From: an uncultured Bacilli bacterium
GTDB lineage: Bacteria > Bacillota_I > Bacilli_A > RF39 > UBA660
Direction: 5' to 3'
Assembly (NCBI GenBank): GCA_944332295.1
Contig: CALVJR010000001.1
Coordinates: forward strand, 136,598-200,597
Length of the DNA: 64,000 bases
The translations under genes and the position numbers were made by a program. The notes under the pieces are model-generated. The model did not search any database and was not told the DNA's origin. It worked only from the letters and a program-made list of their open reading frames with translations. This document shows positions 1 through 37,511 of this stretch, in pieces (within the stretch, counting starts at the first letter, position 1; every line of letters begins with the position of its first letter).

Positions 1-322
1 TATTATAAAAACAGCACACATCAAAGAAAAGATAACATCAGATGAAAATATGTCTTTATATAAATTAGATGATGAAGCTGGATCAACTATCGCAACAACA
101 AGAGTCATCGGAAAGTATTCTACAATATATAATAATATTGGAGGAATATTAGATATCTTAGAGTCAAGATTAGGATTCTTATTACTAGTTATTTTACCTA
201 TTCTTTTAATCTTTATGTATCAAATATATGCTTTGATTATAGTGATTAAATACGGAGAAGAAGAAGCAGAAGAAGAATTAAAACAAAAAAAGCAAAAAGA
301 AAAAGAAATAGAGTTACTATAA
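1..322 (+). CDS. 3' part of a SipW-like signal peptidase I (begins before the window)
   Basis: Frame is open from the window edge. VIGKY...GGILDIL followed by GFLLLVILPILLIF resembles the C-terminus of the SipW at 6370. Confidence 0.6.
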   Translation, partial: IIKTAHIKEKITSDENMSLYKLDDEAGSTIATTRVIGKYSTIYNNIGGILDILESRLGFLLLVILPILLIFMYQIYALIIVIKYGEEEAEEELKQKKQKEKEIELL

Positions 323-350
323 AGATTAAGCAATTAATCTTTTTCTTTTT
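322..350 (+). terminator. Probable intrinsic terminator
   Basis: AAGATTAA/TTAATCTT stem followed by a T-tract directly after the stop codon. Confidence 0.55.
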
Positions 351-396
351 GTAAACAAAAGGTTGTGTTATAATATCATTAGAAAGGTAGAATAAG

Positions 397-975
397 ATGA
401 AAATAGTAAAAAAACATAAAATGATAGCTTTAGTAATAGTAATATTAATCTGTCTTTTATATCTAAAAGGTAATAGTACTTATACATCTTATGAATCAGA
501 AGTAACAGGAAATGTAGAAAGTGATATTGCAGACTGGAAAATCAAAGTAAATGATACCTTGATTACGACGGAAAATGAACAAGTAATTAATATTGATTCT
601 ATAAGTTGGGAAACCAATCATACAAGAGATGGAAAAGCATCTCCTGGTGCATCAGGAACCATAGAGATAACGATAGACCCTACCTCAACAGGAGTAGCTT
701 TTAACTATGAATTAACAGTAATTGACCAAACGGTAGATCCTACAAAAATATTAGTAGTAAATGAAATAGATACAGACGTAGGAAAATTTGAAAAAATAGA
801 TAATACTTATTATGGTAGTATGTCACTTGATAATATCAAAGCAGGAAAAAAAGAAAAACTAACGATGCATGTAAAATGGGAAGACCATGGCGAAGACACA
901 GTGGTAGTACCAGGGGATGAACCAACAACTTCAGATTTTATCGAAATGAGTTTTAAAGTCGCACAGAAAAAATAA
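397..975 (+). CDS. Secreted protein with SipW-class signal peptide (TasA/camelysin-like)
   Basis: Basic N-terminus, hydrophobic helix, STYTSYES cleavage-like motif. IADWKIKVN and ASPGASG are shared with the paralog at 7720. Confidence 0.6.
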   Translation: MKIVKKHKMIALVIVILICLLYLKGNSTYTSYESEVTGNVESDIADWKIKVNDTLITTENEQVINIDSISWETNHTRDGKASPGASGTIEITIDPTSTGVAFNYELTVIDQTVDPTKILVVNEIDTDVGKFEKIDNTYYGSMSLDNIKAGKKEKLTMHVKWEDHGEDTVVVPGDEPTTSDFIEMSFKVAQKK

Positions 976-986
976 GGAGGAAAAAT

Positions 987-1625
987 ATGCTAAAGGAAAA
1001 GCACAAACTTAAAATATTAAATAAATTTAAAAAAGAAAATATAGCATATTTTGAAGAAAAGAAAAGATTTATAATTGTTATTTTAGTGATGTTCCTAATT
1101 ATTTTTATTGCAGTAAAACTATTTCAAATAGCCTATGCCTCATATGAATCAACAGCAAAATTAAATGCAAATATTGAAAAAGCAGTTTATATATTAAAAG
1201 AAGGAGGAATGGATTTTAATATTGATTTAGATAAAATAGAACCTTCTCCAGATCCTTATATATATAAGTTTAGTATTTCAAACTTTAATGGAAATAAGCA
1301 CAGTGATGTAGATATCGAATACAGTATATCCATTACAACCACAACCAATCTACCATTAACATATGAATTATATAGAAATGAAAATTATGATGATGAGAAT
1401 GCAACCAATCTATTTAAAGATATGACAGTAAAGCAAGATGCAGATGGTGCTTGGTATAACTATTTTGAAGGAAAAGAATTATATTATTTTCCATACGAAG
1501 AAGATCTAACAGATATATATACATTAGTAATCTATTTTAAAGAAGAAAATAAGATGACAACAGATTATGCAGATAGTCTAGAAAATATTGAGGTAAAATT
1601 ACAGTCACATCAAGTAACAGAATAG
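987..1625 (+). CDS. Secreted protein with SipW-class signal peptide
   Basis: TM helix then IAYASYES, beta-rich body, AAGGAGG SD. Confidence 0.55.
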   Translation: MLKEKHKLKILNKFKKENIAYFEEKKRFIIVILVMFLIIFIAVKLFQIAYASYESTAKLNANIEKAVYILKEGGMDFNIDLDKIEPSPDPYIYKFSISNFNGNKHSDVDIEYSISITTTTNLPLTYELYRNENYDDENATNLFKDMTVKQDADGAWYNYFEGKELYYFPYEEDLTDIYTLVIYFKEENKMTTDYADSLENIEVKLQSHQVTE

Positions 1626-1634
1626 AGGTGTAAT

Positions 1635-2567
1635 ATGAATTTTATAAGAACTCATAAAAAGTTAAGTATCATAGTATTAATCATCGCAATAATATTGTTT
1701 CTTTATGGTACTACATTAGCTCGATACATCTATAATGCAATTCATAATTATATCTTAGAAAGTAAAGAATTTTATTTTAATAGTACAGTATTAGATATGA
1801 ATACAAAACAATTTAGAATTAATAATTGGGACGGTGTTAATGACTATGTATTAACAATAGACGTAAATAATAAGAAAAACTCACTAAAAAGTACACCTAG
1901 TGACATCTCTTACAAGATAGAAGTATCCTGTCCAGATACAGTAGAGTGTAAACTAAGTAAAACAGAAGGCATTATTTATCAAACAGCCGGAACGGATAGT
2001 TATCAAGTAACAGTAATACCAAAAGACAATTTCTATGAAGGGGATGAAGTAGAAGTAACAACTACTGCAACCTCAACATCTCCATATGTAAAATCACTAT
2101 CAGCAACTTATACCATTGGTATTGAAACAAGTAATTTTACTTATGATATAACAGATGCAAAGAATGACAAGTTTTTAACATTAAATTTAACAAATGCTCT
2201 AACATACTACAAGGTAGAAAAATCATTTGGAGCATATCAAGAAGGGGACAGACTTTCAACCGAAGAATATCAAGCATTAACAGAAGAAGAAAAAGCAAAC
2301 TGTTTTTCAGCAAAAGTAACTTTATCTATTCCGACAAGAGAAATATATTTAGACATGACAAACAAGAATTACTTAGCAAAAATAGCTGGTTCAGAAAAAA
2401 CAGAGACCATAGATAATTTTAATTATGTAAAAGAATTTACTTTTAAAATGGATGCTAGTTCCAGTGAAAAAGTAATATTTTATAAAGAAGATATTACAAA
2501 AGATTATACATATCCCATAGTAAATGAGGAATCCATAGTAACAGTAACCGTAGAAACTGCAGAATAG
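1635..2567 (+). CDS. Secreted protein with SipW-class signal peptide
   Basis: TM helix then TTLARY. Thr-rich, beta-sandwich-like body. Confidence 0.55.
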   Translation: MNFIRTHKKLSIIVLIIAIILFLYGTTLARYIYNAIHNYILESKEFYFNSTVLDMNTKQFRINNWDGVNDYVLTIDVNNKKNSLKSTPSDISYKIEVSCPDTVECKLSKTEGIIYQTAGTDSYQVTVIPKDNFYEGDEVEVTTTATSTSPYVKSLSATYTIGIETSNFTYDITDAKNDKFLTLNLTNALTYYKVEKSFGAYQEGDRLSTEEYQALTEEEKANCFSAKVTLSIPTREIYLDMTNKNYLAKIAGSEKTETIDNFNYVKEFTFKMDASSSEKVIFYKEDITKDYTYPIVNEESIVTVTVETAE

Positions 2568-2630
2568 GCTTTGAAAGAAAAAAGATATGTGTTATAATTT
2601 ACCTAGCATAAAATAAGGAGGAGAAAAGAT

Positions 2631-3689
2631 ATGAACTTAGTAACTAAATTTTTAGAATATAAGAAAAATAAACTAGTTTCGTACGGACTAGCACTTTTCT
2701 CCGAAACTGAATATCATGATTTTTTAGTAGAGTGCTTAAAAAAATATATCAATAATTATATAGAAGTGAAATATCATCAACAGTTTGAAACCGTATCTGA
2801 TAATTCTGAAGTAACAAAAGAAGTAATAGAAGAAGAACAGACTGGAATGAGACTAGAACTATTAGATGACCTATCAGTAAAAGAAATTATCGAAACAAAC
2901 GAAGGATATATTAGAAAACAAGAACTAATTAATGTCGCAGCAACAATTGCTAAAACTATAATAAGAATAGATACTTTAGACTTAACAGAAGAAAATAAGG
3001 ATGAAAAACTAGATAGAGTATTAAAAGAAGCAAATAAAGAATTCCCTCTACGCCAAAATGCCAAAACATTAATCGTAAAAATATGGCGAGAAGAAGAGGG
3101 AACAATAAAAAAGATATTAACACCAAAAGAAAGTTTTACTCTAAACTTAATATCATATGAGGGCAATATAAAAGAAGTAAAATTAACTCCTCAAATAAAG
3201 CAATTAAATATCTATAAAAAAAGTCTAGTAGAAAGAGTTTATCAAGAAGAAAAAGTAACATATGAAAAAATAAAATTAATGATAATCTTGTTAAATCAAT
3301 TAGTATTAGAAAAAATAATAAAAAAAGAAGAAATAGAAAATTACATGGTAATCATTCCCGATGAAATATGGACAAAAAAGCAAAAAATGGATGCGATATA
3401 CGAACTATTAGATGACAAAATCCTAAAAGAACATATTTTATTAGGAATTACTTATAACACATTAATTAGTAATAAGACAATACAAGAAAAAAGAAAAGAA
3501 AAATATAAGTTTATCTGTCTCCAAGATTTTACACACATTAATGATATTCCAACCAAAATAAGTAATATTGATACTTCTAATTTATTTGATTATTTAATGG
3601 TAACATCATACAAAGATAAAGACTTTAAAGAGTTTGAAAATATAGAAGTAACGACAATGAAAGGAATTTTATTTAGTAAGGAAGGTTAA
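2631..3689 (+). CDS. Hypothetical cytoplasmic protein, first gene of the AAA+ operon
   Basis: 352-aa ORF, AAGGAGG SD, upstream TGnTATAAT. Ends 2 bp before the AAA+ gene. Confidence 0.7.
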   Translation: MNLVTKFLEYKKNKLVSYGLALFSETEYHDFLVECLKKYINNYIEVKYHQQFETVSDNSEVTKEVIEEEQTGMRLELLDDLSVKEIIETNEGYIRKQELINVAATIAKTIIRIDTLDLTEENKDEKLDRVLKEANKEFPLRQNAKTLIVKIWREEEGTIKKILTPKESFTLNLISYEGNIKEVKLTPQIKQLNIYKKSLVERVYQEEKVTYEKIKLMIILLNQLVLEKIIKKEEIENYMVIIPDEIWTKKQKMDAIYELLDDKILKEHILLGITYNTLISNKTIQEKRKEKYKFICLQDFTHINDIPTKISNIDTSNLFDYLMVTSYKDKDFKEFENIEVTTMKGILFSKEG

Positions 3690-3691
3690 GT

Positions 3692-5233
3692 ATGAATACA
3701 TTTATAAGGTTTTTATATGAATTTATGTCTGTTTTCTTTAATGGTCTTTATACCATAGGTAAAGGAATTGTATCTGGAATTGCTCAAATGTTTAATATTA
3801 GTGAGTATTTATACATCATACAATTTTATAAAAATGATTTTAATGTATCAGAATGGGTACTAGTAATTATTGCGATTATCGTATTAATCATATTATTAGG
3901 ATTAATACTAGTCTTAGGCTGGTTACTAATTAGAAAATATATTAGATTTAGAAAAACATTAGTAGAGCAAGAATCAATGTTAGCAGAAATCGGAGAATTA
4001 AATAAAAAAGTAGCAAGCCTAGTAAAAGAAAAAGAAGAAATACTAGCAATGAAAGTATCTCAATTAGGACTAAAACCAGGGGAAGCAGAAATATTGGATG
4101 AAAAAGAAAATAAAGAAAAACAAGACGAAGTAGAAACATTAGAAGATGATGGAAATTATCGTTTCTCTAAACTACATGCTATTGACTTACAATTTAAAGA
4201 TTATAAAGTACAAAATTATAATAATACATTCACTCTAGAAGAATTAGTAGAATTATTTAGAAACTTTGCCGCATCAAAATTAAGACTGTATTATACAACG
4301 AATATGATAAGATTATTTATCTCATCACTATCCGCAACAAAACTAGTAATACTACAAGGTATTTCTGGTACTGGTAAAACATCTCTTGCTTATGCCTGGG
4401 GAAAATTTATAAAACGAGATGCCATTATCGCATCAGTACAACCATCTTGGAGAGACCGTACGGAGTTATTTGGTTACTTCAACGAATTTACAAAGAAATT
4501 TAATGAAACAGATGTCCTAAAAGGAATGTATACAGCAGGCTATACAGATGATGTTTATGTAACTGTACTAGATGAAATGAACATTGCTCGTGTCGAATAT
4601 TATTTCGCAGAAATGTTATCTATTCTGGAAATGCCTAGCCGTGATGAATGGGTAATTGAATTAGTTCCAAGTAGCTGGGATAATGATCCAAAAAAATTAA
4701 AAAATGGAAAATTACAAATTCCAGGAAACATGTGGTATATAGGAACAATCAACAACGATGACTCTACATTCGCAGTAACAGATAAAGTATACGACCGTGC
4801 TATGCCAATCGATATCAATGACAAAGGGCAACCATTTACACCAACAGATACCGAAGCAATGAATATAAATAGTTCTTATCTAGAAAGTTTATTTGCTGAG
4901 GCAAAACAAAAACATCCTCTATCAGAAGAGATGGAAAGAAAAATTAATGAAATGGATGACTATGTAATCAAACATTTCCGTATTGCCTTCGGTAACCGTA
5001 TCGTAAAACAAATGCGAGACTTTGTCGCAACTTATATTGAATGTGGTGGAACCGAAGTAGATGGAGTAGATTATTATATCGCAAGAAAGATATTAAGAAA
5101 ATTTGAACAATTAAATCTAGCATATATCAGAGATGAAATCGATGGCTTTATCGATTATCTAAATAAAACATTTGGAAAAGATAACTTTAACGAATGTAAA
5201 GACTACTTATTAAGATTAAAGAAATTAGTATAG
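3692..5233 (+). CDS. Membrane-anchored McrB-like AAA+ (AAA_5) NTPase
   Basis: Walker A GISGTGKT, SVQPSW..ELFGYFN, Walker B VLDEMNIAR, McrB-like GTINNDDST, DKVYDRA. N-terminal hydrophobic helices plus coiled coil. Confidence 0.85.
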   Translation: MNTFIRFLYEFMSVFFNGLYTIGKGIVSGIAQMFNISEYLYIIQFYKNDFNVSEWVLVIIAIIVLIILLGLILVLGWLLIRKYIRFRKTLVEQESMLAEIGELNKKVASLVKEKEEILAMKVSQLGLKPGEAEILDEKENKEKQDEVETLEDDGNYRFSKLHAIDLQFKDYKVQNYNNTFTLEELVELFRNFAASKLRLYYTTNMIRLFISSLSATKLVILQGISGTGKTSLAYAWGKFIKRDAIIASVQPSWRDRTELFGYFNEFTKKFNETDVLKGMYTAGYTDDVYVTVLDEMNIARVEYYFAEMLSILEMPSRDEWVIELVPSSWDNDPKKLKNGKLQIPGNMWYIGTINNDDSTFAVTDKVYDRAMPIDINDKGQPFTPTDTEAMNINSSYLESLFAEAKQKHPLSEEMERKINEMDDYVIKHFRIAFGNRIVKQMRDFVATYIECGGTEVDGVDYYIARKILRKFEQLNLAYIRDEIDGFIDYLNKTFGKDNFNECKDYLLRLKKLV

Positions 5234-5251
5234 AATAAAGGAGGGTAACAT

Positions 5252-6376
5252 ATGGAAGATGAAATTGAACTATTAGAAGAAACCACAAATAGTGATATAT
5301 TTTTAAATAATATAAATGCAATATTATCAGTAAAAAAAGATTATGAAAAAAAAGAATATGACTATGAATGGATTGATATGATAGATGAGACTCTTCCATA
5401 TCTAGACAATATTCTAAGAAATCCTAAAAGATTTATTATCAATGAGGAAGAAGTAGTACAAGTAGAAAAATCAAAGAAAGTAACTGTAGAAAGTATTATT
5501 CACTTAACACAACATACCAACTATATTCAAAAAATAGAAGATAATGGTGATGTAAAACCATCCAAAATATTAAATATTAATAAAGAGGAAAGTCTAGATA
5601 CTTATGAAAACAGATTTGTCTATACATTAATTAATAATACAAGAACTTTCTTTGAACAAAGAAAAGCAGTAACGGGAGATTTTTCTTATTTCAAGGATAA
5701 AAAAGAATTAAAATATGAAGCAAATACTCAAATTGGTACGGAAGAAGTAGAACTATCTCTAAATATATCATCTAGAAATGAAGCAAAATTAGAAACAGAA
5801 AAGAAAGACTCTAATGAATCAGTAGCGGATAGACTAAAAAGAATAAAAATACAACTAGATGGATTTACGGGAACAGAACTAATGCAAACGCTATCAAGAT
5901 TACATGTATCACCCGTACGTTCTCCCATTAGAAAAACAAACGTTATCTTAAAAAATCCTAACTTCCAAAAAGCAGAAGCTCTATGGAATTATATTCAAAT
6001 GTATGAAGAAAAAAATGTAAATGAAAAAGAACATAAAGATTATTATGATGAAAGTAATCTAAAAAGAGAATATAACAAAGCATTTCTAGAACTATATCTA
6101 GCAAATAAAGTTCTAGACTATGAAGCAAAACTATTAACAGAAAAGAAACTGTTGCAACAATTAATAAATCGTATGATTGAAAACATATTAGACTCTAATT
6201 CCGAAATGACAGAAAAAACCATCAAAGAATTATTTGAACAGCAATTAAAATTAATAAAAGAAGCAAATGAAGAAAAGAAGAAAAAAATTAGAAAGATATT
6301 ATTAGAAAAGCTAGAAACAGAACAAAATAATTATATAAAAGACTGGAACATACTAGAGGAGACGAGAATATGTTAA
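5252..6376 (+). CDS. DUF2357 / McrC-like partner protein
   Basis: DTYENRFV motif typical of DUF2357/McrC N-domains, directly downstream of the McrB-like gene. C-terminus looks coiled-coil. Confidence 0.7.
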   Translation: MEDEIELLEETTNSDIFLNNINAILSVKKDYEKKEYDYEWIDMIDETLPYLDNILRNPKRFIINEEEVVQVEKSKKVTVESIIHLTQHTNYIQKIEDNGDVKPSKILNINKEESLDTYENRFVYTLINNTRTFFEQRKAVTGDFSYFKDKKELKYEANTQIGTEEVELSLNISSRNEAKLETEKKDSNESVADRLKRIKIQLDGFTGTELMQTLSRLHVSPVRSPIRKTNVILKNPNFQKAEALWNYIQMYEEKNVNEKEHKDYYDESNLKREYNKAFLELYLANKVLDYEAKLLTEKKLLQQLINRMIENILDSNSEMTEKTIKELFEQQLKLIKEANEEKKKKIRKILLEKLETEQNNYIKDWNILEETRIC

Positions 6377-6960
6377 GAAAGATATTAGATAGCAAATACT
6401 TTCAGATTCCATATAGAATAATAAAAGCAATAATTATTATTGTAATGGTAACATATGTAACTTTCGTGGTTGTTCAAAGAGTAAGTGGAAATAAAAGTAT
6501 TTTTGGTTATCGTATTTTTACAGTTGCAACTGGAAGTATGATTCCTGACTATGAAATAAATGATGTTTTAGCAATCAAAGAAGTAAACTCAGACGAATTA
6601 GAGGTAGGAGATGATATTACTTATCTCGGAAAAAAATTAGATGTTAATGGAAAAATAGTTACCCATAGAATTATTAATATAAAAATAGAGGACGGAAAGA
6701 AAGAATTTATAACGAAGGGTGTAAACTCTTCAGCAGAAGATCCTGCCATAACAGATGATCAAATCTATGGTAAAGTAATAGGAAAAATTCCTGTTATAAC
6801 CACAATCAATCATATTATAAAAAATCAATATGGCTTCTTCTTCCTAATCTTTCTTCCTTTAGTAACGGTAATCTTTTTAGAAATTGCTGATACAGTAACG
6901 GAAATAAAATTAGAAAAAAAGAAGGTTGAGGATAATGAAGATGTGGAAGAAATTATTTAA
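6370..6960 (+). CDS. sipW: Signal peptidase I, SipW (S26B) type
   Basis: VATGSMIP (catalytic Ser), VGDDITY, VTHRI (His), ITKG..S..ED. N- and C-terminal TM helices. Confidence 0.88.
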   Translation: MLRKILDSKYFQIPYRIIKAIIIIVMVTYVTFVVVQRVSGNKSIFGYRIFTVATGSMIPDYEINDVLAIKEVNSDELEVGDDITYLGKKLDVNGKIVTHRIINIKIEDGKKEFITKGVNSSAEDPAITDDQIYGKVIGKIPVITTINHIIKNQYGFFFLIFLPLVTVIFLEIADTVTEIKLEKKKVEDNEDVEEII

Positions 6961-7693
6961 ATTAGATCAACCAGTAAATGAAAGAAGAAAAAGTAGAAGA
7001 AAAACCATTGTAAGAAGTATATTACTAATCGCTTTTTTACTAATAATCAATACGTTTGCATGGTTTACTTATATTTCAAAAGCTAATTTATCTCTTAATG
7101 GAAGCGTAGTATCCTGGGAAGTAAGTTTCTTAGATCAAAATAGTATCATAAAAGATATAAATATTGCAATTACAGATATGAAGCCAGGAATGATGCAATT
7201 TGCAAAAACAATTGATATCGTAAATAACAGTGACGTAGCTGCCCAATTTACATATAAAATAACATCAGTAGAGTTACTAGGAACCAAAATATTCGAAGGA
7301 GAAGAAACGGAGACAATTAAACAAAAATTAGAGCAAGAGTTTCCTTTTACGTTAAAGATGATAGTAGGAAAACAAGATTTAGATTTAACTGATACAAGTA
7401 GTTTCGAAGTAACAATGGACTGGACTTATGAAGAAGATAAATATTATAAAGTAAACAGTCTATATACATATGATCCAGCAGTTAATTACTATGTGTTAAT
7501 AAATGATACTTACCAAGTAGATAGTACCGTAACAGAAGAAAATTTCCAGTCTAAAGTACAAACTGGAATATATTTAGCAAAAGATGATGCAGATAGTTTC
7601 TTCGGTTATGCCTGTGGCAATTATGAAAAAAATACCAAGAAACCATGTATGGATGTCCATATAGAATTAGAAGTGAGTCAAAGAACTCCATAA
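6926..7693 (+). CDS. Secreted protein with SipW-class signal peptide
   Basis: TM helix then NTFAWFT, a canonical SipW-type motif, and MKPG. True start is probably ATG 6935 or 6941. Confidence 0.65.
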   Translation: MRIMKMWKKLFKLDQPVNERRKSRRKTIVRSILLIAFLLIINTFAWFTYISKANLSLNGSVVSWEVSFLDQNSIIKDINIAITDMKPGMMQFAKTIDIVNNSDVAAQFTYKITSVELLGTKIFEGEETETIKQKLEQEFPFTLKMIVGKQDLDLTDTSSFEVTMDWTYEEDKYYKVNSLYTYDPAVNYYVLINDTYQVDSTVTEENFQSKVQTGIYLAKDDADSFFGYACGNYEKNTKKPCMDVHIELEVSQRTP

Positions 7694-7694
7694 A

Positions 7695-7721
7695 AAAGCA
7701 GTTTTATGATAAAACTGCTTT
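7695..7721. terminator. Bidirectional terminator between convergent genes
   Basis: AAAGCAGTTTTA-tga-TAAAACTGCTTT perfect 12-bp inverted repeat. Confidence 0.8.
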
Positions 7722-8325
7722 AATTATTTAACTGACTAAATTGAAGAGTAACACTCATCAATGCTTTACTTTCATCATCAGTAGCAACCTCTGTATCCGC
7801 TTGATTATCCATAGTACCCTCATCATCATCCCATTTTATATAAACCCTAAATACTGTTTGATTAGTATTTTTAGAAATCTGTTGAACAATTCCAGTATCT
7901 GCAGAATAAGTTAATCTCTCATCAGTATCACTAACTGGATTAATGACATAAGATAAAGTCTTTAAATCAGAAACACTAGAATCTACAGAAACATCAGAGT
8001 GCATAGTACATAAAAAGTTAACATCTACATCACTTGCATCAATCGTAATAGTATAATATCCTTCCACACCAGGAGCAATAACTCCTTCTTTCGTATTTTC
8101 AGACTCCAAAAATGTAGGCTCGATAGTAGTAGTTAATGTTTTTTTATTAGCAATATCTTCACCATTAACTTTAATATTCCAATTAGCAATATCAGAAGAA
8201 ACTGTTCCTTCTAGTTGTCTTCGATATTTAGCATAAGAAGATTGAAATAAATAAAGAAGACAACAACTAACTAAAACAATAAACAAAATAACAAATTTTA
8301 TATCCTTTTTCTTAGCATTAGTCAT
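7720..8325 (-). CDS. Secreted protein with SipW-class signal peptide, paralog of 397..975
   Basis: SSYAKY after a TM helix, IANWNIKVN, IAPGVEG, VYIKWDD. Confidence 0.65.
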   Translation of the reverse strand: MTNAKKKDIKFVILFIVLVSCCLLYLFQSSYAKYRRQLEGTVSSDIANWNIKVNGEDIANKKTLTTTIEPTFLESENTKEGVIAPGVEGYYTITIDASDVDVNFLCTMHSDVSVDSSVSDLKTLSYVINPVSDTDERLTYSADTGIVQQISKNTNQTVFRVYIKWDDDEGTMDNQADTEVATDDESKALMSVTLQFSQLNN

Positions 8326-8458
8326 AAGACACCTACCTTACACTTAATTTTATCACAGAATAAAAGAAATAAAAAGTGTGTAAACTAAAAAAACAAATAG
8401 TAAAATTGTTTACTATAGAAAAAAAGATATGATATATTCATAATAAGGATGTGAAAAT

Positions 8459-10625: not shown

Positions 10626-12506
10626 ATGATAGAGTTTGAAATACCATTTGTATGTTTAATTTTTACAACACTTATTTCCATAATTTTCTTTACTAAAAAG
10701 AAAGTTGATCTAGAAGAAAATTATTACTATAAAAATATATTAATCTTTACTCTTTTAGTAAATGCAACAAATTTTATATCTCATTATATGGCAAGTATTT
10801 TTGCTAAAGACTATATTAGTGATTGGTTTGCTATAGTATTTGCAAATATTAATAAATTAGGATCACTATTTATTGTAATTATAACAACCAATATCTTATC
10901 TTATATTTTATATATAAGTTTTGAAAAATATAGAAGAAATTTTGTAAGAAATAAGAAAATTAATTATATTTTTTACATAGTAGTAGGTATATTAATATTT
11001 TTATTAAAATTTGATGTATATAAAATAGGGGAAGTAACTAGTGGACGAGGATCAGCAGTCATTTTAACATTTAGTATTGTATTTCTTGATTTAATAGTAG
11101 CATTTATAATTGCTTTAACAAATATAAAGAAATATGACAAAAGATATTATGCGATTTACTTTATTATTCCTTTAATATTCTTACTAGGTATTTTTGTTAT
11201 GTTTCATCCCCAATTTAACATATATGATTTAATTTTAAGCTTGTTATGTTATTTGATGTATTTTACAATAGAAAATCCGGATATGAAAATGATTGTAGAA
11301 TTAAATACCGCCAAGGAACAAGCAGAACGTGCTAATCGAGCAAAAAGCGATTTTCTATCAAGCATGTCACATGAAATTCGTACTCCGTTAAATGCTATTG
11401 TAGGATTATCGGAAGACGTAAAAATGAGAAGCAACTGTCCCGAAGATATGAAAGAAGATTTAGAAGATATTGTATCTGCATCCAAAACGTTATTAGAGAT
11501 TGTTGGAAATATTATGGATATTAATAAAATAGAAAGTGATAAACTAGAAATCACAGAGGTATCTTATAATCCTAAAAAAGAAATAGAAACGCTAGCAAGA
11601 GTAGAAGGAACAAGAATAGGAGATAAACCAATTGATTATAAAATAAATATTGCTGAAGATATACCTTATCATTTAATTGGGGATAAATCACATATAAAAC
11701 AAATTATAAGTAACTTACTTTCTAATGCCATCAAATATACAGAAAAAGGGATAATAGAGTTAAACGTAAACTGTATTAACCAAGGAGAAAACTGTCTATT
11801 AATAATTAGTGTTAAAGACACTGGTAGAGGTATAAAATCAGAAGATATTAATAAATTATTTACTAAGTTCGAACGACTAGACGTAGAAAGAAACACAACA
11901 ACAGAAGGAACCGGGTTAGGATTAGCAATTACTAAAAAATTAGTAGAATTAATGAATGGATTGATTAATGTAGAAAGTAGATATAAAGAAGGTTCTATCT
12001 TCGTGGTACAAATTCCCCAAAAAATAGATATGCTGACAAAACCATTATCAGAAGAAGAATTACTAAACACAGCAGAAATTTTAATAAATGAAAAAATAAA
12101 CATAAGTAATAAAAAAGTATTAATTGTAGACGATAATAAACTAAACATTAAAGTAGCAAGAAGAAGTCTACAAGATTTTAACTTAGTAATAGAAGAATGT
12201 TATAATGGAAAAGAATGTCTAGAAAAAGTAAAGTCTGGAGAAAAATATGACTTAATTCTAATGGATATTATGATGCCGGAAATGAGTGGAGAAACTGCTT
12301 TAACTGAGTTAAAAAAGATAGACGGATTTAATACGCCTGTAATTGCTTTAACAGCAGATGCCATTGCAGGAGCAGAAGAAAAATATAAACAAGATGGATT
12401 TATAGATTATATAGCAAAACCGTTTACAAAAGATCAAATTAAGAAAAAATTAGATAAAATATTTAGAAAGCAAGAAGAACAGAACAATAATATAGAAATG
12501 CTATAA
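10626..12506 (+). CDS. Hybrid sensor histidine kinase with receiver domain
   Basis: Multi-TM N-terminus, [11 protein letters not shown]-box, [20 protein letters not shown], and receiver VDDN..MDIMMP..KP. Confidence 0.95.
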
Positions 12507-14133: not shown

Positions 14134-15222
14134 ATGGATTTTAGTTTAGACTGGTTTTTATCTATACCAGGATTATTAATAACAGGAGGAGTACTATTAT
14201 TTCTTATAGCATTTATTCTTTTAATTGTAACAATGTTAAAAAAGAAAAAAGAAAACAAGAGTACCGATGCAGCGGCACCTACTAATGCCAGTGCTACTAC
14301 TGCAGCCGCTACTCCAAACCCTGCAGTAACGCCAGGAACAATGCCAGCACCAGTAGCAGGAGCAACTAGTGCTGTACCAGAGATGACTTCTCCAAGTGTA
14401 ACAGGAGGATCAATTATGGATATTCCTACACCTATGACAGGTCAACCACAAGAAATGAATATGAATATGAATGCCAACATGAATGCTATGGCCATGGGAC
14501 CACAACCAATGCCACAAGCACCAATGAATGTAAGTGTAGAGCAGATGCCACCTCAGATGCCAATGGATACAATGGTACAACCACAACCAATGGCACCAAT
14601 CGAACCAATGGCTCAAGCAGTGCCAACACCTGAACCAATAGCACCTGTTACTCCAACACCAGAACCAATGGCAGTACAAGGAGTAGCACCAATACAAGAG
14701 ACTCCACAAGTACCAGTCGTTGATCCAATGGCACAGAATATTCAAACACCTGAAATTGCACCAACAATACCAACAGAAACACAACAAACACCTGTAATGC
14801 CAACAGTAGAGCCTATTGCACCACAAGAAGCTACACCAGAACCTATTGCTCCAGTAGCACCAATGCCTGAGGAGCCTGCGATGCCAACGGTAGAGCCTAC
14901 TATGCCAGTACAACCTGAAATGCCAAATATACAAACAGCTGCACCAGTAGAGCAACCATTTGTAGAACAGGCACCAGTACAACCTCAACCAACAACTGGA
15001 CCAGTAATTTACGGAGGAGCAAATCCTATTGTACCTGAGATAAATATTAATGAAACACAACATCAAATTTATGGAGGAGCAAATCCTTTAGAAAACACAC
15101 AATCTATTCCAATTTCTAATTTAGCTGGACAACAAAATGTAGTACAAACACCACAGCCAGAACCAACAATGGTAACACCACAAGTTGCTCCAGTAACAGA
15201 AACGAATAATATAGGACAATAA
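14134..15222 (+). CDS. Membrane-anchored Pro/Met/Gln-rich disordered protein
   Basis: One N-terminal TM helix plus KKKK, low-complexity PEP/MAP repeats, two IYGGANP motifs. Confidence 0.8.
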   Translation: MDFSLDWFLSIPGLLITGGVLLFLIAFILLIVTMLKKKKENKSTDAAAPTNASATTAAATPNPAVTPGTMPAPVAGATSAVPEMTSPSVTGGSIMDIPTPMTGQPQEMNMNMNANMNAMAMGPQPMPQAPMNVSVEQMPPQMPMDTMVQPQPMAPIEPMAQAVPTPEPIAPVTPTPEPMAVQGVAPIQETPQVPVVDPMAQNIQTPEIAPTIPTETQQTPVMPTVEPIAPQEATPEPIAPVAPMPEEPAMPTVEPTMPVQPEMPNIQTAAPVEQPFVEQAPVQPQPTTGPVIYGGANPIVPEININETQHQIYGGANPLENTQSIPISNLAGQQNVVQTPQPEPTMVTPQVAPVTETNNIGQ

Positions 15223-15260: not shown

Positions 15261-15782
15261 ATGCTAAAAAAAATTGTATTAATACTCTATGTAATAATCA
15301 TAGGAATAGCAATTGGAGTTATTGTGGTATCAATGAATAGAAACGAACAAGGACTAATACAATTTGGAAATACCATATTAGTAGAAGTTGAAAATAATGT
15401 ATTAGAACCAAAACTTGTAAAAGGAGACTTAGTCTTAGTAAACACAGAAGAACAAAAAGTACAAGAGAAGGATATTATTACCTATTTTACTTTAGAGAAT
15501 CAAAAATCAGAAATTCGTACGAACGAAATAGCAGCCATTACAGAAGATGTAAACGGAGTAACAATTTACTCATTAAAAAAAGAAGATGGAACAATTGAAA
15601 ATATTGATGATAGCTGTATTATAGGAACATATAAATTATCGATACCTTATGCCGGTACAATTTTAAATTACATATTATCAAAAGATGGATTTTTAACGGT
15701 AACCTTAGTACCAGCAATAATTTTATTTTTAATAATGTTATTAAAATTTGTAATGGAAGTAAGTCCCAAAAAACAGATGTAA
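15261..15782 (+). CDS. Degenerate SipW-like protein
   Basis: LEPKLVKGDLV, KDIITY, IIG..IPYAG and terminal TM helices match the SipW layout, but the catalytic Ser and His positions read NNVL and RTNE. Confidence 0.6.
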   Translation: MLKKIVLILYVIIIGIAIGVIVVSMNRNEQGLIQFGNTILVEVENNVLEPKLVKGDLVLVNTEEQKVQEKDIITYFTLENQKSEIRTNEIAAITEDVNGVTIYSLKKEDGTIENIDDSCIIGTYKLSIPYAGTILNYILSKDGFLTVTLVPAIILFLIMLLKFVMEVSPKKQM

Positions 15783-32990: not shown

Positions 32991-33090
32991 TGTCCGATAT
33001 TAAGGACAATTTAAATATAACACTGTCCGAAAACATTGTCAATACAATTTGACCGAAAAACTAGACATTTAAATAAAAACGTGGTAAAAT
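32991..33090. promoter_or_regulatory. Divergent promoters with three 18-bp operator-like boxes
   Basis: TGTCCGATATTAAGGACA (32991), TGTCCGAAAACATTGTCA (33024), TGACCGAAAAACTAGACA (33050). Minus-strand TTGACA-N17-TATATT and plus-strand TAGACA-N17-TAAAAT. Confidence 0.75.
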
Positions 33091-33130
33091 TAAATTGTTG
33101 AGAGAAAAAAGGGGAGAAAGAAGTGTTATT

Positions 33131-33652
33131 ATGAACTCAGAAGAACTTAAAAATTTAATTGAATCTGCAAGAGAGGCAAAAGGTATTTCACAAAGAGAAC
33201 TTGCTAAATTAACAGGTATTAGTAGAAGTACTTTAAATGATTTAATTAATGGTAAAATAAAAAAAGTAGATATTGATGATCTACGTAAAATTGCTGAAAC
33301 TTTAGATATGTCATTACAGAAACTATTAAAGGTTGCAGGATATGATGAAATGCTTTTCTATTTTTCTAAGGATAAATATGCAAATAAATCTAGTAAAGAT
33401 TTAAAAGACTTAATTGAACAATATAAAGAATCTGAATTAGAATTACTAGATTTTGATAATGAAAAAAGAAAAAAAGTAAGTGATGCAAGACAAAAATTAT
33501 TTTACACTATGGAACACTTAAAAATAATGAAAGATAATAAAGATAGTTTATATACAATAGATAAAGCCATTGAAGATATTAAATATGCATTTGACGAATT
33601 AGAGGATGCAGAACATAAATACGATTATAGTAAATTACCAAAGAAAAACTAG
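33131..33652 (+). CDS. XRE-family HTH repressor
   Basis: AREAKGISQRELAKLTGISRSTLNDLING. Start placed at ATG 33131. Confidence 0.9.
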   Translation: MNSEELKNLIESAREAKGISQRELAKLTGISRSTLNDLINGKIKKVDIDDLRKIAETLDMSLQKLLKVAGYDEMLFYFSKDKYANKSSKDLKDLIEQYKESELELLDFDNEKRKKVSDARQKLFYTMEHLKIMKDNKDSLYTIDKAIEDIKYAFDELEDAEHKYDYSKLPKKN

Positions 33653-33664
33653 GGAGATGATATT

Positions 33665-34270
33665 ATGGACATAATTAAGTTCAATTTAGATGAACTTGAA
33701 AATCAAAATACAGGTTTTTCATACTATTTATTAGGAAGAAGTTATGATTTAGAAGAAAATGGTGCTATCCAAGATTATACAAAAGCATTAGAATATTATT
33801 TAAAGGGTTTAAATATTGATTATCCATTATGTATTTATTCTTTAGGTATTTCTTACGAATTAGGATTAGGAGAAATATTATCAATAGATAAAAATAAATC
33901 AAAAGAACTTCTAAACAATGCATATCCTAAGATTATTAAATTAATAAATAATCCTAACATTTCTGATACAGAAAGAATCTATGCAAAATTTGTAACTGGT
34001 GCTTATTATTATTTTGGACTTGGTAATATAGAAAAAGATTATAACAAAGCATTTCAGATTATTAAAGAATGTGCTGATAAAGGTCATATTGCCGCAATTT
34101 ATGATTTGGGTGCTAATTTTTATTTTAATGGTAATGGAACGGATATTAATTATGACTTGGCAGATTATTATTTGAATCTTGCAAAAGAAAATGGTTTAAA
34201 AAGAGCAATGGATTTATGTAAATCAAGAAGTAAAATTAAGAAAAAATCGGAGAGGGATAATAATGAATAA
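33665..34270 (+). CDS. Sel1-like repeat protein
   Basis: LGxxY..G....D..KA repeats. Confidence 0.85.
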   Translation: MDIIKFNLDELENQNTGFSYYLLGRSYDLEENGAIQDYTKALEYYLKGLNIDYPLCIYSLGISYELGLGEILSIDKNKSKELLNNAYPKIIKLINNPNISDTERIYAKFVTGAYYYFGLGNIEKDYNKAFQIIKECADKGHIAAIYDLGANFYFNGNGTDINYDLADYYLNLAKENGLKRAMDLCKSRSKIKKKSERDNNE

Positions 34271-34892
34271 AAAAATTGAAAATGCTATAAAATATTATAA
34301 GTTATGTACTAAACTAAAGGATACAATTAGGACAGGTCCTATTGTTTGGAATGCAAAAAGAGAAAGAATCGAAAGTGTTGCAGAACACATATACGGAGTT
34401 CAAATGTTAGCGATATCAATTTATTATCAATTGGGATACAAATTAGATATTATGAAAGTTATTTATATGTTGGCAGTTCATGAACTTGAAGAAATAGAAA
34501 TTGGCGATTTAGCATTCTTTGAAACTACAAGAGAAGAAAAACTTATTAAAGGTAAGAAAGCAACAGATTATATATTAAAGGATTTGCTTGGAAAAGATGA
34601 AATATCAGCATTATTAGATGAGTATAATGAAAGAACTACAGAAGAAGCAAAATTTGCTTATCATTGTGATAAATTAGAGTGTGATATTCAAATGAAACTA
34701 TATGATCAAGAAGGATGTTTTGATTTAAATAATCAGCCTAATAACCCAATTCTTAATAATCCTAATGTTAGAAAAGTATTAGATAGTGAAAAAAATATAT
34801 CTAATGCATGGATTGAATTTGATAGAAGTAAATATGAAGATGATAAAAACTTTATTGAGATTATCGACTATTTAAAAGAAAACGAAATATAA
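34263..34892 (+). CDS. HD-domain phosphohydrolase (YfbR/HDDC2-like)
   Basis: LKDTIRTG, ESVAEH, VHELEE, GD, CDKLE. Confidence 0.85.
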   Translation: MNKKIENAIKYYKLCTKLKDTIRTGPIVWNAKRERIESVAEHIYGVQMLAISIYYQLGYKLDIMKVIYMLAVHELEEIEIGDLAFFETTREEKLIKGKKATDYILKDLLGKDEISALLDEYNERTTEEAKFAYHCDKLECDIQMKLYDQEGCFDLNNQPNNPILNNPNVRKVLDSEKNISNAWIEFDRSKYEDDKNFIEIIDYLKENEI

Positions 34893-34909
34893 GTTAGGAG
34901 AATCGAAAG

Positions 34910-36177: not shown

Positions 36178-36181
36178 AGAT

Positions 36182-36904: not shown

Positions 36905-36952
36905 ATTAGAAATATATATATATAAATTACACTTTTGAAAGTGAGTGATATT

Positions 36953-37345: not shown

Positions 37346-37385
37346 TTTTTAAATACAATATTAAATTATTAGATAAATTTAGATA

Positions 37386-37453
37386 AAAATGACACTGTGA
37401 CACTAAAAATGAGTGTAGGGTACTCACAAACAATGTGTCACTGTGTCATTTTT
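37386..37453. repeat. Long inverted repeat with tandem TGACAC units (terminator or protein-binding site)
   Basis: AAAAATGACACTGTGACAC / GTGTCACTGTGTCATTTTT, 19-bp arms with one mismatch. Inner TGAGTG/TACTCA hairpin, then a T-tract. Confidence 0.7.
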
Positions 37454-37505: not shown

Positions 37506-37511
37506 ATTCTC

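What the first reader, a model, noticed from the sequence alone, without database searches (positions are those of the whole stretch)
2631..6960. Membrane-tethered McrB-like NTPase and apparently nuclease-less McrC-like partner coupled to sipW inside a fibre-protein cluster
Seen: the McrB-type AAA+ has N-terminal hydrophobic helices and a coiled coil where a DNA-reading domain normally sits. The DUF2357-like partner ends in a coiled-coil-like tail with no PD-(D/E)xK motif that I can see, and its stop overlaps the sipW start. SipW-substrate genes flank both sides. Established: McrBC systems are modification-dependent restriction enzymes, and SipW processes TasA/camelysin fibre subunits. Inference: an McrBC motor repurposed for assembly or export of a surface fibre, or a membrane-linked defence.
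Basis: partly seen in the sequence, partly recalled or inferred. Interest (0 to 1): 0.72.

Follow-up and report, generated by a model that had tools for sequence, protein, structure and literature searches.

The report
Membrane McrBC-like GTPase in SipW operon
A relative of the McrBC restriction motor that has lost its nuclease and gained a membrane anchor sits in a signal-peptidase and secreted-protein operon of a gut bacterium; this type was named CoCoPALM in 2024 but has never been tested, and it probably helps build a surface structure rather than cut DNA.

Summary
Window 2631-6960 is a tightly coupled operon with four genes. The first encodes a 352-aa protein of no known family. The second encodes a 513-aa McrB-like GTPase with a transmembrane helix and stalk where a DNA reader normally sits, and an NxD signature motif. 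The third encodes a 374-aa McrC-like partner: a DUF2357 N-domain plus a helical tail, with no nuclease. The fourth encodes an active SipW-type signal peptidase whose start overlaps the McrC-like stop.

The flanking genes encode secreted beta-sandwich proteins that share a T-[FY]-A-W-[FY]-like motif after their signal anchor. They match neither the TasA/camelysin family nor the SipW-signal model.

Every defining feature of CoCoPALM (Bell et al., eLife 2024, one paragraph) is met, so this is a new member of a known, untested kind. The scan has already found it in at least 8 other genomes.

The synteny is strongly conserved. SipW lies within three genes in 77 of 80 closest loci, and the family occurs in 106 of 300 sampled genomes of the class. 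Neighbours are adhesin-like giant proteins and c-di-GMP enzymes, not defence genes.

Additions here:
- The upstream SipW paralog is a pseudo-peptidase.
- The 352-aa domain is fused to signal peptidases in relatives.
- SipW clusters exist without the motor.

A role in surface-fibre or adhesin biogenesis is likely but unproven.

The parts
2..322 (+). C-terminal 106 residues of a 194-aa SipW-like pseudo-peptidase. The gene starts upstream of the window, at L071 16336-16920.
   Evidence: NCBIfam SipW E 4.6e-5 on the C-terminal part. Full ORF. In an alignment with active SipW the Ser box and His box are both replaced, as in its orthologs of the same family.
397..975 (+). 192-aa secreted-looking protein (T192): signal anchor followed by TYTSY.
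   Evidence: ORF. No Pfam or NCBIfam family. Motif. Profile-profile related to T212 (97.5%, 150 columns).
987..1625 (+). 212-aa paralog (T212): signal anchor followed by AYASY.
   Evidence: hhalign to T192 97.5% and to T310 95.7%.
1635..2567 (+). 310-aa paralog (T310): signal anchor followed by TLARY.
   Evidence: Conserved in this position in close relatives.
2571..2598 (+). Best sigma-70-like promoter match in the region (TTGAAA, 16 nt, TATAAT, with TG), in the 63-base gap before the 352-aa gene.
   Evidence: 11 of 12 matches. The number of such sites in the region is not above shuffles (64 against 69.5), so this is only suggestive.
2631..3689 (+). 352-aa protein of no known family (P352), directly upstream of the GTPase. 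In relatives the same domain is the C-terminal part of a signal-peptidase fusion.
   Evidence: No family. Found directly upstream of the McrB-like gene in 56 of 80 closest loci. 10 of 53 family members carry an N-terminal S24/S26 peptidase domain. Stop and next start are 2 bases apart.
3692..5233 (+). 513-aa McrB-like NxD GTPase. Layout: N-terminal hydrophobic region and TM helix (about 55-80), stalk (about 85-135), acidic linker, AAA+ domain (about 190-513).
   Evidence: Walker A GISGTGKT, Walker B LDEMN and the signature INNDDS are aligned to an invariant N-x-D-[DE] in 47 of 47 relatives.
5252..6376 (+). 374-aa McrC-like partner: DUF2357 N-domain (about 20-255) plus helical or coiled-coil tail (266-374). 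No nuclease domain.
   Evidence: Neither a TM segment nor a SipW domain in any of 119 family members.
6370..6960 (+). 196-aa SipW-type (ER/archaeal-type) signal peptidase I, predicted active. Start overlaps the McrC-like stop.
   Evidence: (GSM and THR boxes).
6926..7693 (+). 255-aa secreted beta-sandwich protein (T255): signal anchor followed by TFAWF. The start is uncertain (TTG 6926 or a nearby ATG).
   Evidence: AlphaFold2 pLDDT 73.7, N-terminal helix then beta-sandwich. Only generic Ig-like structural matches, Z at most 6.8. Large family around these operons: 104 hits in 28 of 40 loci.
7695..7721 (.). 12-pair hairpin between the convergent T255 and T201 genes. Terminator-like on the + strand.
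   Evidence: 10 terminator-like sites in the region against 2.4 in shuffles.
7720..8325 (-). 201-aa paralog of T192 on the opposite strand: signal anchor followed by SYAKY.
   Evidence: Conserved convergent position in close relatives.

Best explanation
This is a CoCoPALM system: a nuclease-free, membrane-anchored derivative of the McrBC GTPase motor built into a signal-peptidase operon.

Shown:
- The GTPase has intact Walker A and B motifs and the NxD signature.
- It carries a TM helix plus stalk in place of a DNA reader.
- The partner keeps the McrC N-domain, which in McrBC plugs the hexamer and stimulates GTP hydrolysis, and ends in a helical tail instead of a nuclease.
- Both genes are translationally coupled to an active SipW-type peptidase.
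- They are embedded among secreted beta-sandwich proteins that share a motif at the predicted cleavage site.

Inferred:
- The GTPase forms a cytoplasmic hexamer hung under the membrane by its six anchors, with the McrC-like adaptor in its pore.
- GTP hydrolysis is used mechanically or as a checkpoint for processing, release or polymerisation of the SipW-dependent surface proteins encoded alongside (small subunits, and in relatives giant adhesins).
- This would be loosely analogous to the way an assembly ATPase serves a prepilin peptidase and pilins in type IV pili.
- The inactive SipW paralog and the 352-aa cytoplasmic protein would be accessory parts that tie motor and peptidase together.
- The module is an add-on, because related SipW clusters exist without it.
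For: Membership:
- NxD-[DE] is invariant in 47 of 47 aligned relatives.
- A TM segment is present in 47 of 47.
- DUF2357 scores above the cut-off.
- The McrC-like model ends in a helical tail.
- The class definition comes from Bell et al. 2024, section 7 and supplement.

No nuclease:
- 0 of 16 McrC-likes scanned hit any nuclease family (1, 12, 3 more).
- Structural matches cover the N-domain only.

Linkage in 40 hand-picked loci (47 GTPase genes):
- 45 have an adjacent McrC-like gene.
- 34 have SipW within 3 genes.
- 30 have a T-family gene within 6 genes.

Linkage in the 80 closest loci of species-representative genomes:
- McrC-like is the next gene in 77 of 79.
- SipW lies within 3 genes in 77 of 80.
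- A T-family gene lies within 6 genes in 76 of 80.

Genome level:
- 101 of 106 genomes with the GTPase also have a SipW-type peptidase, against 78 of 194 without it. I compared the tables by eye. Related genomes are not independent.

Distribution is lineage-wide in several families: f12 20/22, f19 14/15, f18 6/6, f28 6/6. It extends to Clostridia-labelled genomes.

Context is surface and biofilm-like:
- GGDEF/EAL proteins in 14 of 40 loci.
- A 2334-aa protein with 13 cadherin-like domains.
- Giants of at least 1000 aa in 36 of 80 loci.

Operon coupling.
Against: - No experiment exists on any member. Searches for 'CoCoPALM', for McrB with FtsB, and for DUF2357 with signal peptidase found only the 2024 paper and its preprint.
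- The flanking proteins are not recognisable TasA/camelysin. No Pfam hit. TIGR04088 appeared for 1 of 12 at E 2.3. The fold match is generic. So 'fibre' is a guess and cleavage by SipW is unproven.
- In the window's own family the GTPase is patchy (13 of 34 genomes) while SipW is nearly universal (32 of 34). SipW clusters with giant proteins exist without it. It is therefore not required for SipW-dependent export as such.
- 13 of the 47 GTPase genes in the hand-picked loci have no SipW within three genes. These include McrB-McrC-McrB triples, pairs next to 2300-aa proteins, and 900-aa forms.
- How a cytoplasmic GTPase would act on extracellular assembly is unexplained.
- The GTPase core matches a PADLOC defence-candidate model.
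Confidence: 0.65

Rival explanations
1. A membrane-linked anti-phage or abortive-infection system. The McrBC-derived GTPase senses an invader or damage to the envelope at the surface structure and triggers a membrane or secretion-based response, with the peptidase or membrane anchors acting as effector.
For: - Ancestry lies in type IV restriction.
- The GTPase core matches the PADLOC candidate PDC-M26A at E 3.1e-33 here, and at 1e-41 to 1e-50 in relatives.
- The sister CoCoNuT clade is predicted to be defensive.
- Presence within the window's family is patchy, 13 of 34 genomes.
- Some genomes carry several copies.
Against: - No nuclease or other known effector domain appears in the operon.
- None of the 7 McrC-like partners scanned hits any PADLOC model (1, 6).
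- Gene order with sipW and secreted proteins is conserved from Bacilli to Clostridia, and presence is near-universal in four families. That is unlike typical defence islands.
- Most neighbours scanned are surface, c-di-GMP or housekeeping genes. One locus, L046, has ToxN and Fic genes nearby.
Confidence: 0.1
2. A regulatory or quality-control GTPase rather than an assembly motor. It gates SipW activity, or clears cleaved signal anchors or stalled precursors from the membrane, perhaps in response to c-di-GMP. It does not power polymerisation.
For: - Related SipW clusters work without it, as expected for a modulator.
- c-di-GMP enzymes and two-component genes are frequent neighbours.
- In two loci a GGDEF-EAL protein sits where the 352-aa gene sits here (L041, L044).
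- The 352-aa domain is fused to signal peptidases in 10 of 53 relatives.
Against: - No sequence evidence ties the 352-aa protein to a c-di-GMP-binding fold. hhalign probabilities are 0.4% and 2%. 0 of 53 members hit Pfam EAL. HMM scores equal those of shuffled sequences.
- Nothing distinguishes this reading from the motor model with the data in hand.
Confidence: 0.2
3. A cell-division or envelope-organising factor, suggested by the FtsB/FtsL-like anchor, and only fortuitously next to sipW.
For: - Weak matches of residues 54-125 to FtsL, ATP synthase b and SpoIIIAF (E 0.005 to 0.06).
- The authors of the class saw FtsB at HHpred E 1.2.
Against: - The matches are weak and typical of any TM-plus-coiled-coil stalk.
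- Linkage to sipW and secreted proteins is far too consistent to be chance.
- The gene was not found in many families of the class: 0 of 28, 0 of 18 and 0 of 13 genomes in f4, f11 and f21.
Confidence: 0.03

Closest known systems
[quoted passage not shown] Bell, Sahakyan, Makarova, Wolf, Koonin, eLife 2024, PMC11090510. I read section 7, passages, and supplementary table rows.
   Same: - NxD-type McrB-like GTPase.
- FtsB-like TM-plus-coiled-coil N-terminus.
- Coiled coil on the McrC-like partner.
- Association with signal-peptidase-family genes.
   Different: Nothing contradicts membership. The paper gives about three sentences and defers the analysis.

It likens the peptidase to the pilus chaperone SipA (4N31, HHpred E 8.1e-8). 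Here the operon's own peptidase is an active SipW/SEC11-type enzyme, and a separate paralog is the inactive one.

Not described there:
- The secreted-protein families.
- The 352-aa domain and its peptidase fusions.
- The giant proteins.
- The c-di-GMP neighbours.
CoCoNuT systems (coiled-coil nuclease tandems), same paper
   Same: - NxD GTPase branch.
- Coiled-coil fusions.
- McrC homologs that often lack an active PD-(D/E)xK domain.
   Different: CoCoNuTs always have a HEPN or other nuclease nearby and are cytoplasmic. Here there is no nuclease, there is a membrane anchor, and the neighbours are secretion genes.
Canonical McrBC type IV restriction enzyme (E. coli, Thermococcus gammatolerans; PDB 6hz4, 6ut6, 6ut5)
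   Same: - AAA+ GTPase core (E 4.1e-6).
- McrC N-domain fold (Z 9.0 and 8.6).
- Adjacent gene pair.
   Different: - NxD instead of NxxD.
- No DNA-binding N-domain.
- No nuclease domain.
- Membrane anchored.
Bacillus subtilis tapA-sipW-tasA biofilm fibre operon (recalled; TasA fibre structure 8aur appears)
   Same: A dedicated SipW-type peptidase is encoded with secreted beta-sandwich proteins. A conserved aromatic motif sits at the end of the signal sequence.
   Different: - No NTPase is known in the Bacillus system.
- The secreted proteins here do not match the TasA/camelysin family or TIGR04088.
- The structural match to TasA-like filaments is weak: 8aur at Foldseek rank 28, 7ueg at Z 5.2.
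Streptococcus pyogenes SipA/LepA, an inactive signal-peptidase homolog needed for sortase pilus polymerisation (function recalled; PDB 4n31 named)
   Same: A catalytically dead signal-peptidase paralog is encoded in a surface-structure locus, as with the 194-aa pseudo-SipW here.
   Different: - No sortase or LPXTG motifs are seen at the C-termini of the window's five secreted proteins (read).
- The match of the peptidase-fusion profile to 4n31 is only E 1.4.
Type IV pilus, type II secretion and archaellum machinery (recalled; analogy only)
   Same: The same logic: a dedicated peptidase, subunits with an N-terminal hydrophobic anchor, and a cytoplasmic hexameric NTPase at the membrane.
   Different: The protein families are unrelated. 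No platform protein was identified. Cleavage is predicted on the outer side of the anchor, not the inner.

Membership tests
CoCoPALM (Bell et al. 2024) | McrB-like GTPase with the NxD variant of the signature motif | tested here: met
   Window protein has I-N-N-D-D-S. The aligned column pattern N-x-D-[DE]-S-T is invariant in 47 of 47 relatives.
CoCoPALM (Bell et al. 2024) | GTPase fused to an FtsB-like transmembrane plus coiled-coil N-terminus | tested here: met
   TM segment at residues 55-80 (hydropathy 3.82), and one in 47 of 47 relatives. Weak profile matches of residues 54-125 to FtsL, ATP synthase b and SpoIIIAF. The coiled coil itself is read from the sequence, not modelled.
CoCoPALM (Bell et al. 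2024) | McrC homolog (DUF2357) with a coiled-coil extension | tested here: met
   DUF2357 at 44.5 bits against a cut-off of 23.3. The model has helices at 269-290, 297-314 and 321-373. The profile of longer homologs matches only the SMC1A coiled coil.
CoCoPALM (Bell et al. 2024) | Association with signal-peptidase-family genes | tested here: met
   SipW start overlaps the McrC-like stop. SipW lies within 3 genes in 77 of 80 closest loci and for 34 of 47 genes in the diverse hand-picked loci.
Canonical McrBC restriction system | PD-(D/E)xK nuclease domain in McrC | tested here: not met
   No nuclease family in Pfam, NCBIfam or PADLOC. After residue 255 the model has one strand and three helices, too little for the nuclease core. 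McrC structures align only over their N-domains. This is a model, not a solved structure.
Canonical McrBC restriction system | N-terminal DNA-binding specificity domain in McrB | tested here: not met
   Residues 1-190 hold hydrophobic segments, a stalk and an acidic linker. No DNA-binding family was hit.
Canonical McrBC restriction system | NxxD GTPase signature | tested here: not met
   The family-wide alignment shows N-x-D. The window's own N-N-D-D could be read either way when taken alone.
SipW / ER-archaeal-type signal peptidase I (gene 6370-6960) | Family model above the cut-off, and catalytic Ser and His present | tested here: met
   TIGR02228 at 78.1 bits against 51.85. The Bacillus SipW equivalog scores 83.4 bits, below its cut-off of 190. 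GSM and THR boxes are present.
SipW / ER-archaeal-type signal peptidase I (upstream 194-aa paralog, window 2-322) | Catalytic Ser and His | tested here: not met
   Both boxes are replaced in the window's paralog and in 4 orthologs of the same family. In other families the upstream paralog keeps both.
TasA / camelysin (Peptidase_M73) fibre subunits, for the flanking proteins | Match to the family model | tested here: not met
   No Pfam family at E 0.1 or less for the five window proteins, nor at E 0.001 or less for the T-family proteins of 12 other loci. A profile of 69 T255 relatives finds no TasA in the PDB at E 10 or less.
TasA / camelysin (Peptidase_M73) fibre subunits, for the flanking proteins | TasA-like jelly-roll fold | tested here: inconclusive
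   The T255 model (pLDDT 73.7) is a beta-sandwich. Best matches are generic Ig/PapD-like domains, Z at most 6.8. TasA-like filaments rank low: 7ueg Z 5.2, 7pnb Z 4.9, 8aur Foldseek rank 28.
SipW-dependent-type signal peptide (TIGR04088) | Match to the signal-peptide model | tested here: not met
   1 of 12 proteins, E 2.3, 8.5 bits against a cut-off of 19. A similar-looking T-[FY]-A-W-[FY] motif follows the anchor in 55 of 121 T-family proteins, against 24 of 284 other ORFs.
PADLOC candidate defence system PDC-M26 | Both subunits match | tested here: not met
   The A model matches the GTPase; the best-scoring stretch covers the AAA+ core (profile 315-433 of 724). No PADLOC model matches any of the 7 McrC-like partners scanned.

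The most novel reading that the evidence does not exclude
CoCoPALM is a distinct, GTP-powered pathway for building surface fibres or displaying giant adhesins in Gram-positive gut bacteria.

- A membrane-hung McrB-like hexamer with a McrC-like shaft acts as the motor.
- A SipW-type peptidase acts as the processing enzyme.
- A dead SipW paralog acts as a SipA-like subunit chaperone.
- The 352-aa cytoplasmic domain, elsewhere fused to the peptidase, couples peptidase and motor, possibly under c-di-GMP control.

This would be a functional analogue of the type IV pilus machine assembled from restriction-enzyme parts.
Probability: 0.2. Interest if true: 0.8.

Novelty: new member of a known kind. 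Interest (0 to 1): 0.4.

Why it matters
If the prediction holds, a restriction-enzyme motor has been converted into part of a cell-surface assembly machine. That would be a clear case of a defence module turned to a cellular job.

The system is widespread:
- 106 of 300 sampled genomes of the class carry it.
- Relatives occur in genomes labelled Clostridia.
- 766 protein clusters match at E 1e-30 or better.

It could therefore govern adhesion or biofilm formation by many uncultured gut bacteria. No member has been tested, so the first genetic or biochemical study would settle what the whole class does.

For this scan the finding is a repeat. The class was already named in print, and the scan has already flagged it in at least 8 other genomes.

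Tried and rejected
- The 352-aa protein as a degenerate EAL (c-di-GMP) domain. The leads were a language-model hit (clusters with EAL on 13% of members, scores 0.92 and 0.90), an earlier scan note, and GGDEF-EAL genes in the same position in two loci. Every sequence test was negative. hhalign probability was 0.4% with 6 sequences and 2% with 53. 0 of 53 members hit Pfam EAL at E 1 or less. There was no EAL chain in the PDB profile search. Scores against an EAL HMM equalled those of shuffled sequences.

- Complex prediction of the GTPase with the 352-aa protein. No verdict (score 0.01 against a mark of 0.32). This is neither support nor evidence against binding.

- Expression. Four chicken-gut metatranscriptome runs hold 5-7% of the sampled words.

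- C-terminal extensions of long SipW forms as homologs of the 352-aa domain. No HMM hits.

- McrC-like fused to SipW, reported in earlier scan notes for other genomes. Not seen in any of 119 McrC-likes in my loci.

- Sequence search of the McrC-like protein and of its family profile against the PDB. Only chance or coiled-coil matches.

- Foldseek on both models. Nothing at E 0.001 or less.

- The GTDB-phylum sample added no new classes. All listed genomes were of the same class.

Full report
**What is there.** Window 1-8400 of this low-GC genome (26-30% G+C) carries one co-oriented run of genes plus one convergent gene. The genome is 1.7 Mb in 86 contigs. The closest database proteins are labelled Candidatus Faecimonas or Bacilli MAGs. 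In order, the genes are:
- The end of a SipW-like gene (2-322).
- Three paralogous small secreted-looking proteins (397-975, 987-1625, 1635-2567).
- A 352-aa protein (2631-3689).
- A 513-aa McrB-like protein (3692-5233).
- A 374-aa McrC-like protein (5252-6376).
- A 196-aa SipW (6370-6960).
- A 255-aa secreted-looking protein (6926-7693).
- A convergent 201-aa paralog of the first (7720-8325, minus strand).

The four genes of the finding are tightly packed. There is a 2-base gap, then an 18-base gap, then a 7-base overlap. The best promoter-like site of the region lies just upstream at 2571-2598. A 12-pair hairpin follows the 255-aa gene at 7695-7721. The promoter count is not above shuffles, so the promoter is only suggestive.

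**The GTPase.**
- The 513-aa protein matches E. coli McrB in NCBIfam (E 7.1e-7) and in the PDB (6hz4_A, E 4.1e-6, residues 203-379).
- It matches the PADLOC candidate model PDC-M26A (E 3.1e-33); the best-scoring stretch covers the AAA+ core.
- In an alignment of 47 relatives, Walker A (SGTGK[TS]), Walker B (LDE[ML]N) and the signature G-T-[AI]-N-x-D-[DE]-S-T are conserved. That signature is the NxD variant, not the canonical NxxD.
- The N-terminus has no DNA reader. It has a strongly hydrophobic helix at about 55-80 (hydropathy 3.82), followed by R-K-Y-I-R-F-R-K and a heptad-like stretch.
- That stretch gives weak matches to TM-plus-stalk proteins: ATP synthase b E 0.0053, FtsL E 0.056.
- The positive cluster after the helix places the GTPase in the cytoplasm. 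This is an inference from the positive-inside rule.
- All 47 relatives examined have such a hydrophobic segment.

**The partner.**
- The 374-aa protein matches Pfam DUF2357, the McrC N-domain, above the curated cut-off. It matches nothing else.
- An AlphaFold2 model built on 41 homologs has mean pLDDT 83.4.
- Foldseek gave nothing at E 0.001 or less, with E. coli McrC at rank 7.
- An all-against-all structural search put the two McrC structures on top. These are 6ut5_G (Z 9.0, rmsd 4.6, 137 aligned) and 6hz4_M (Z 8.6, rmsd 5.0, 137 aligned). The next rows score 7.9, so the margin is modest.
- Both alignments cover model residues 35-253. In E. coli McrC they cover residues 36-189, the N-domain and not the nuclease.
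- After residue 255 the model has one strand and three helices. That cannot make a PD-(D/E)xK core.
- Of 12 McrC-likes from other loci, 8 hit DUF2357 and none hit a nuclease. Three more long forms (724-821 aa), plus one rescanned, hit nothing at E 0.01 or less.
- None of 119 McrC-likes has a TM segment or a SipW domain.

**The peptidases.**
- The 196-aa protein passes the archaeal/ER-type signal peptidase model (78.1 bits against 51.85). It keeps the Ser (GSM) and His (THR) boxes.
- The gene whose tail lies at window 2-322 is a 194-aa SipW-like protein with the same two-anchor layout but with both catalytic boxes replaced. Four orthologs in the same family show the same loss.
- In other families the upstream paralog keeps both residues.
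- A second such degenerate copy lies at 15261-15782.

**The flanking proteins.**
- None of the five matches any Pfam or NCBIfam family.
- T192, T212 and T310 are related by profile comparison (97.5% and 95.7% over about 150 columns). T255 shares only the N-terminal 19-60 columns with them.
- All five have a basic N-terminus and a hydrophobic anchor, followed by TYTSY, AYASY, TLARY, TFAWF or SYAKY.
- Across loci, the commonest residues are T at position 0, F or Y at 1, A at 2, W at 3 and F at 4. By my filter the motif occurs in 55 of 121 T-family proteins and in 24 of 284 other ORFs.
- Most of those 24 are further small proteins with G-F-A-[SA]-W next to a 600-aa form of the GTPase.
- This looks like the TasA/camelysin signal end, which I recall from memory. 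The curated SipW-signal model does not recognise it: 1 of 12, E 2.3.
- The T255 model (pLDDT 73.7) is an N-terminal helix plus a beta-sandwich. Structural matches are generic, Z at most 6.8, with TasA-like filaments low in the list.
- These are therefore secreted beta-sandwich proteins that plausibly depend on SipW. 'Fibre subunit' is not shown.

**Conservation.**
- The GTPase family is large. 8206 cluster representatives match at E 0.001 or less, 5905 at E 1e-10 or less, and 766 at E 1e-30 or less.
- In 300 sampled genomes of the same class it was found in 106 at E 1e-10 or less. It is nearly universal in some families (f12 20/22, f19 14/15, f18 6/6, f28 6/6). It was not found in others (f4 0/28, f11 0/18, f21 0/13). 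In the window's own family it is patchy, 13/34.
- I fetched 40 loci chosen by hand to span families and odd forms and labelled ORFs with HMMs iterated from the window's proteins.
- Of the 47 GTPase genes in those loci, 45 have an adjacent McrC-like gene, 34 have SipW within three genes (16 have two), and 30 have a T-family gene within six genes.
- The exceptions have no SipW nearby. They are pairs next to roughly 2300-aa proteins (L041, L044), McrB-McrC-McrB triples (L047, L048, L060, L064) and 900-aa forms (L058, L059).
- An independent scan of species-representative genomes returned 606 relatives. The 80 closest (55-97% identity) carry labels of Bacilli, Erysipelotrichaceae, Tenericutes/Mollicutes and Clostridia, the last including Acutalibacteraceae, Oscillospiraceae and Ruminococcus.
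- In those 80, McrC-like follows in 77 of 79, SipW is within three genes in 77 of 80, a T-family gene is within six genes in 76 of 80, the 352-aa gene is directly upstream in 56 of 80, and a protein of at least 1000 aa is nearby in 36 of 80. The three loci without SipW are contig ends.
- At genome level, 101 of the 106 GTPase-positive genomes also carry a SipW-type peptidase, against 78 of 194 negative ones. The five exceptions are G089, G112, G162, G176 and G256. I compared the tables by eye, and related genomes are not independent.

**Context.**
- Pfam on 134 neighbouring proteins from 12 loci showed GGDEF/EAL or HD-type c-di-GMP enzymes, LytS-type kinases with response regulators, and Wzy_C proteins at the cluster edges. 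Known defence genes were absent, apart from one ToxN and one Fic near L046.
- GGDEF/EAL relatives occur in 14 of the 40 loci.
- One giant neighbour has 13 cadherin-like domains and another has a transglutaminase core. Five of the eight giant or large surface proteins scanned have no Pfam match.
- Upstream of the window the same locus continues with two T255-like genes, a 418-aa SipW with a long tail and a 2694-aa protein.
- In family members without the GTPase, SipW clusters with a T192-like gene and a giant protein still exist: G021 and G161, 2 of 5 genomes looked at. The GTPase pair is therefore an add-on to a subset of SipW clusters.

**The 352-aa protein.**
- It has no family.
- In 10 of 53 relatives the same domain follows an S24/S26 signal-peptidase domain in one polypeptide of 650-834 aa. 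That N-terminal part matches human SEC11C at E 7.8e-5.
- Such a fusion puts the domain on the cytoplasmic side next to a peptidase. This is the best hint that it links peptidase and motor.
- The EAL-fold idea failed every sequence test and rests only on language-model leads. It needs a structure.

**What it is called.**
- Bell et al. (eLife 2024) define a clade of NxD GTPases fused to an FtsB-like TM and coiled-coil domain. [quoted passage not shown]
- They name it CoCoPALM and defer its study to a later paper.
- Their supplement rests this on HHpred matches to FtsB (E 1.2) and to the pilus factor SipA (E 8.1e-8).
- Four full-text searches found no later work.
- Every defining feature is met here, so the finding is a new member of a named, uncharacterised class.
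- The scan has reached the same conclusion in at least 8 other genomes.

**How it probably works.**
- Shown: a GTPase with intact catalytic motifs, a membrane anchor, a McrC-type activator domain without a nuclease, translational coupling to an active signal peptidase, and conserved company of secreted proteins.
- Inferred from McrBC structures: a hexamer with the McrC-like N-domain in its pore.
- Inferred from context: GTP hydrolysis serves processing, release or polymerisation of the neighbouring surface proteins, or gates it. The dead SipW paralog and the 352-aa protein would be accessory parts.
- I put about 0.65 on a role in surface-protein biogenesis (assembly motor or closely related). 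I put 0.2 on a purely regulatory or quality-control role, 0.1 on defence, and little on cell division.

**Limits.**
- There is no expression evidence.
- The complex prediction gave no verdict.
- There is no structure for the GTPase N-terminus or for the 352-aa protein.
- ORF calls in other loci are my own simple longest-ORF calls under table 11.

Noticed in passing
window 15261-15782 (+), with 14134-15222 (+): A second 173-aa SipW-like ORF without recognisable Ser and His boxes. It sits directly after a 362-aa membrane protein with a long Pro/Met/Gln-rich tail.
   Followed up: partly
L071 6857-16213 (same contig, just upstream of the window): A 418-aa SipW with a 250-residue C-terminal tail, then a 2694-aa protein with no Pfam match, preceded by two T255-like genes. 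With these the whole locus is about 25 kb. An earlier scan note (e1-3652514) covers it.
   Followed up: partly
L047 6556-12478, L060 2391-10162, also L048 and L064: McrB-McrC-McrB triples without sipW nearby. In L047 and L060 they are preceded by a further McrB-like paralog that has lost Walker A and B. They lie next to large surface proteins, one of which has a transglutaminase core.
   Followed up: partly
L058 7384-11650, L059 7613-11858: 900-aa membrane-anchored McrB-like proteins paired with roughly 520-aa McrC-like partners among housekeeping genes, with no SipW within three genes. Their role may differ from that of the sipW-linked form.
   Followed up: no
L050-L057 (600-aa form of the GTPase): This form sits after a 330-350-aa SipW with an inserted loop. 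It is followed by an ABC-transporter ATPase and flanked by small proteins whose anchor ends in G-F-A-[SA]-W.
   Followed up: partly
L038 3200-4624, L044 10554-11918, L049 13328-14917, L056 2509-3966, L066 12818-14215 and others: GGDEF/EAL or HD-EAL proteins sit at the edge of many clusters (14 of 40 loci). In L041 and L044 one lies directly upstream of the GTPase.
   Followed up: partly
L049 2795-4939, L056 11686-13191: Wzy_C (O-antigen-ligase-like) membrane proteins lie inside two clusters. This could mean that the secreted proteins are glycosylated.
   Followed up: no
L037 and L039 (also G107, G207): Two copies of the GTPase lie about 15 kb apart on one contig, separated by a roughly 2350-aa protein. 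The first copy lacks an adjacent McrC-like gene.
   Followed up: no
window 10626-12506 (+): A 626-aa hybrid histidine kinase with a multi-pass membrane N-terminus and a receiver domain, about 2 kb downstream of the cluster. It is a possible regulator.
   Followed up: no
window 33000-44000: A stretch of lower G+C (22-26%) with strong positive GC skew and many small co-oriented ORFs. I did not look at it further.
   Followed up: no
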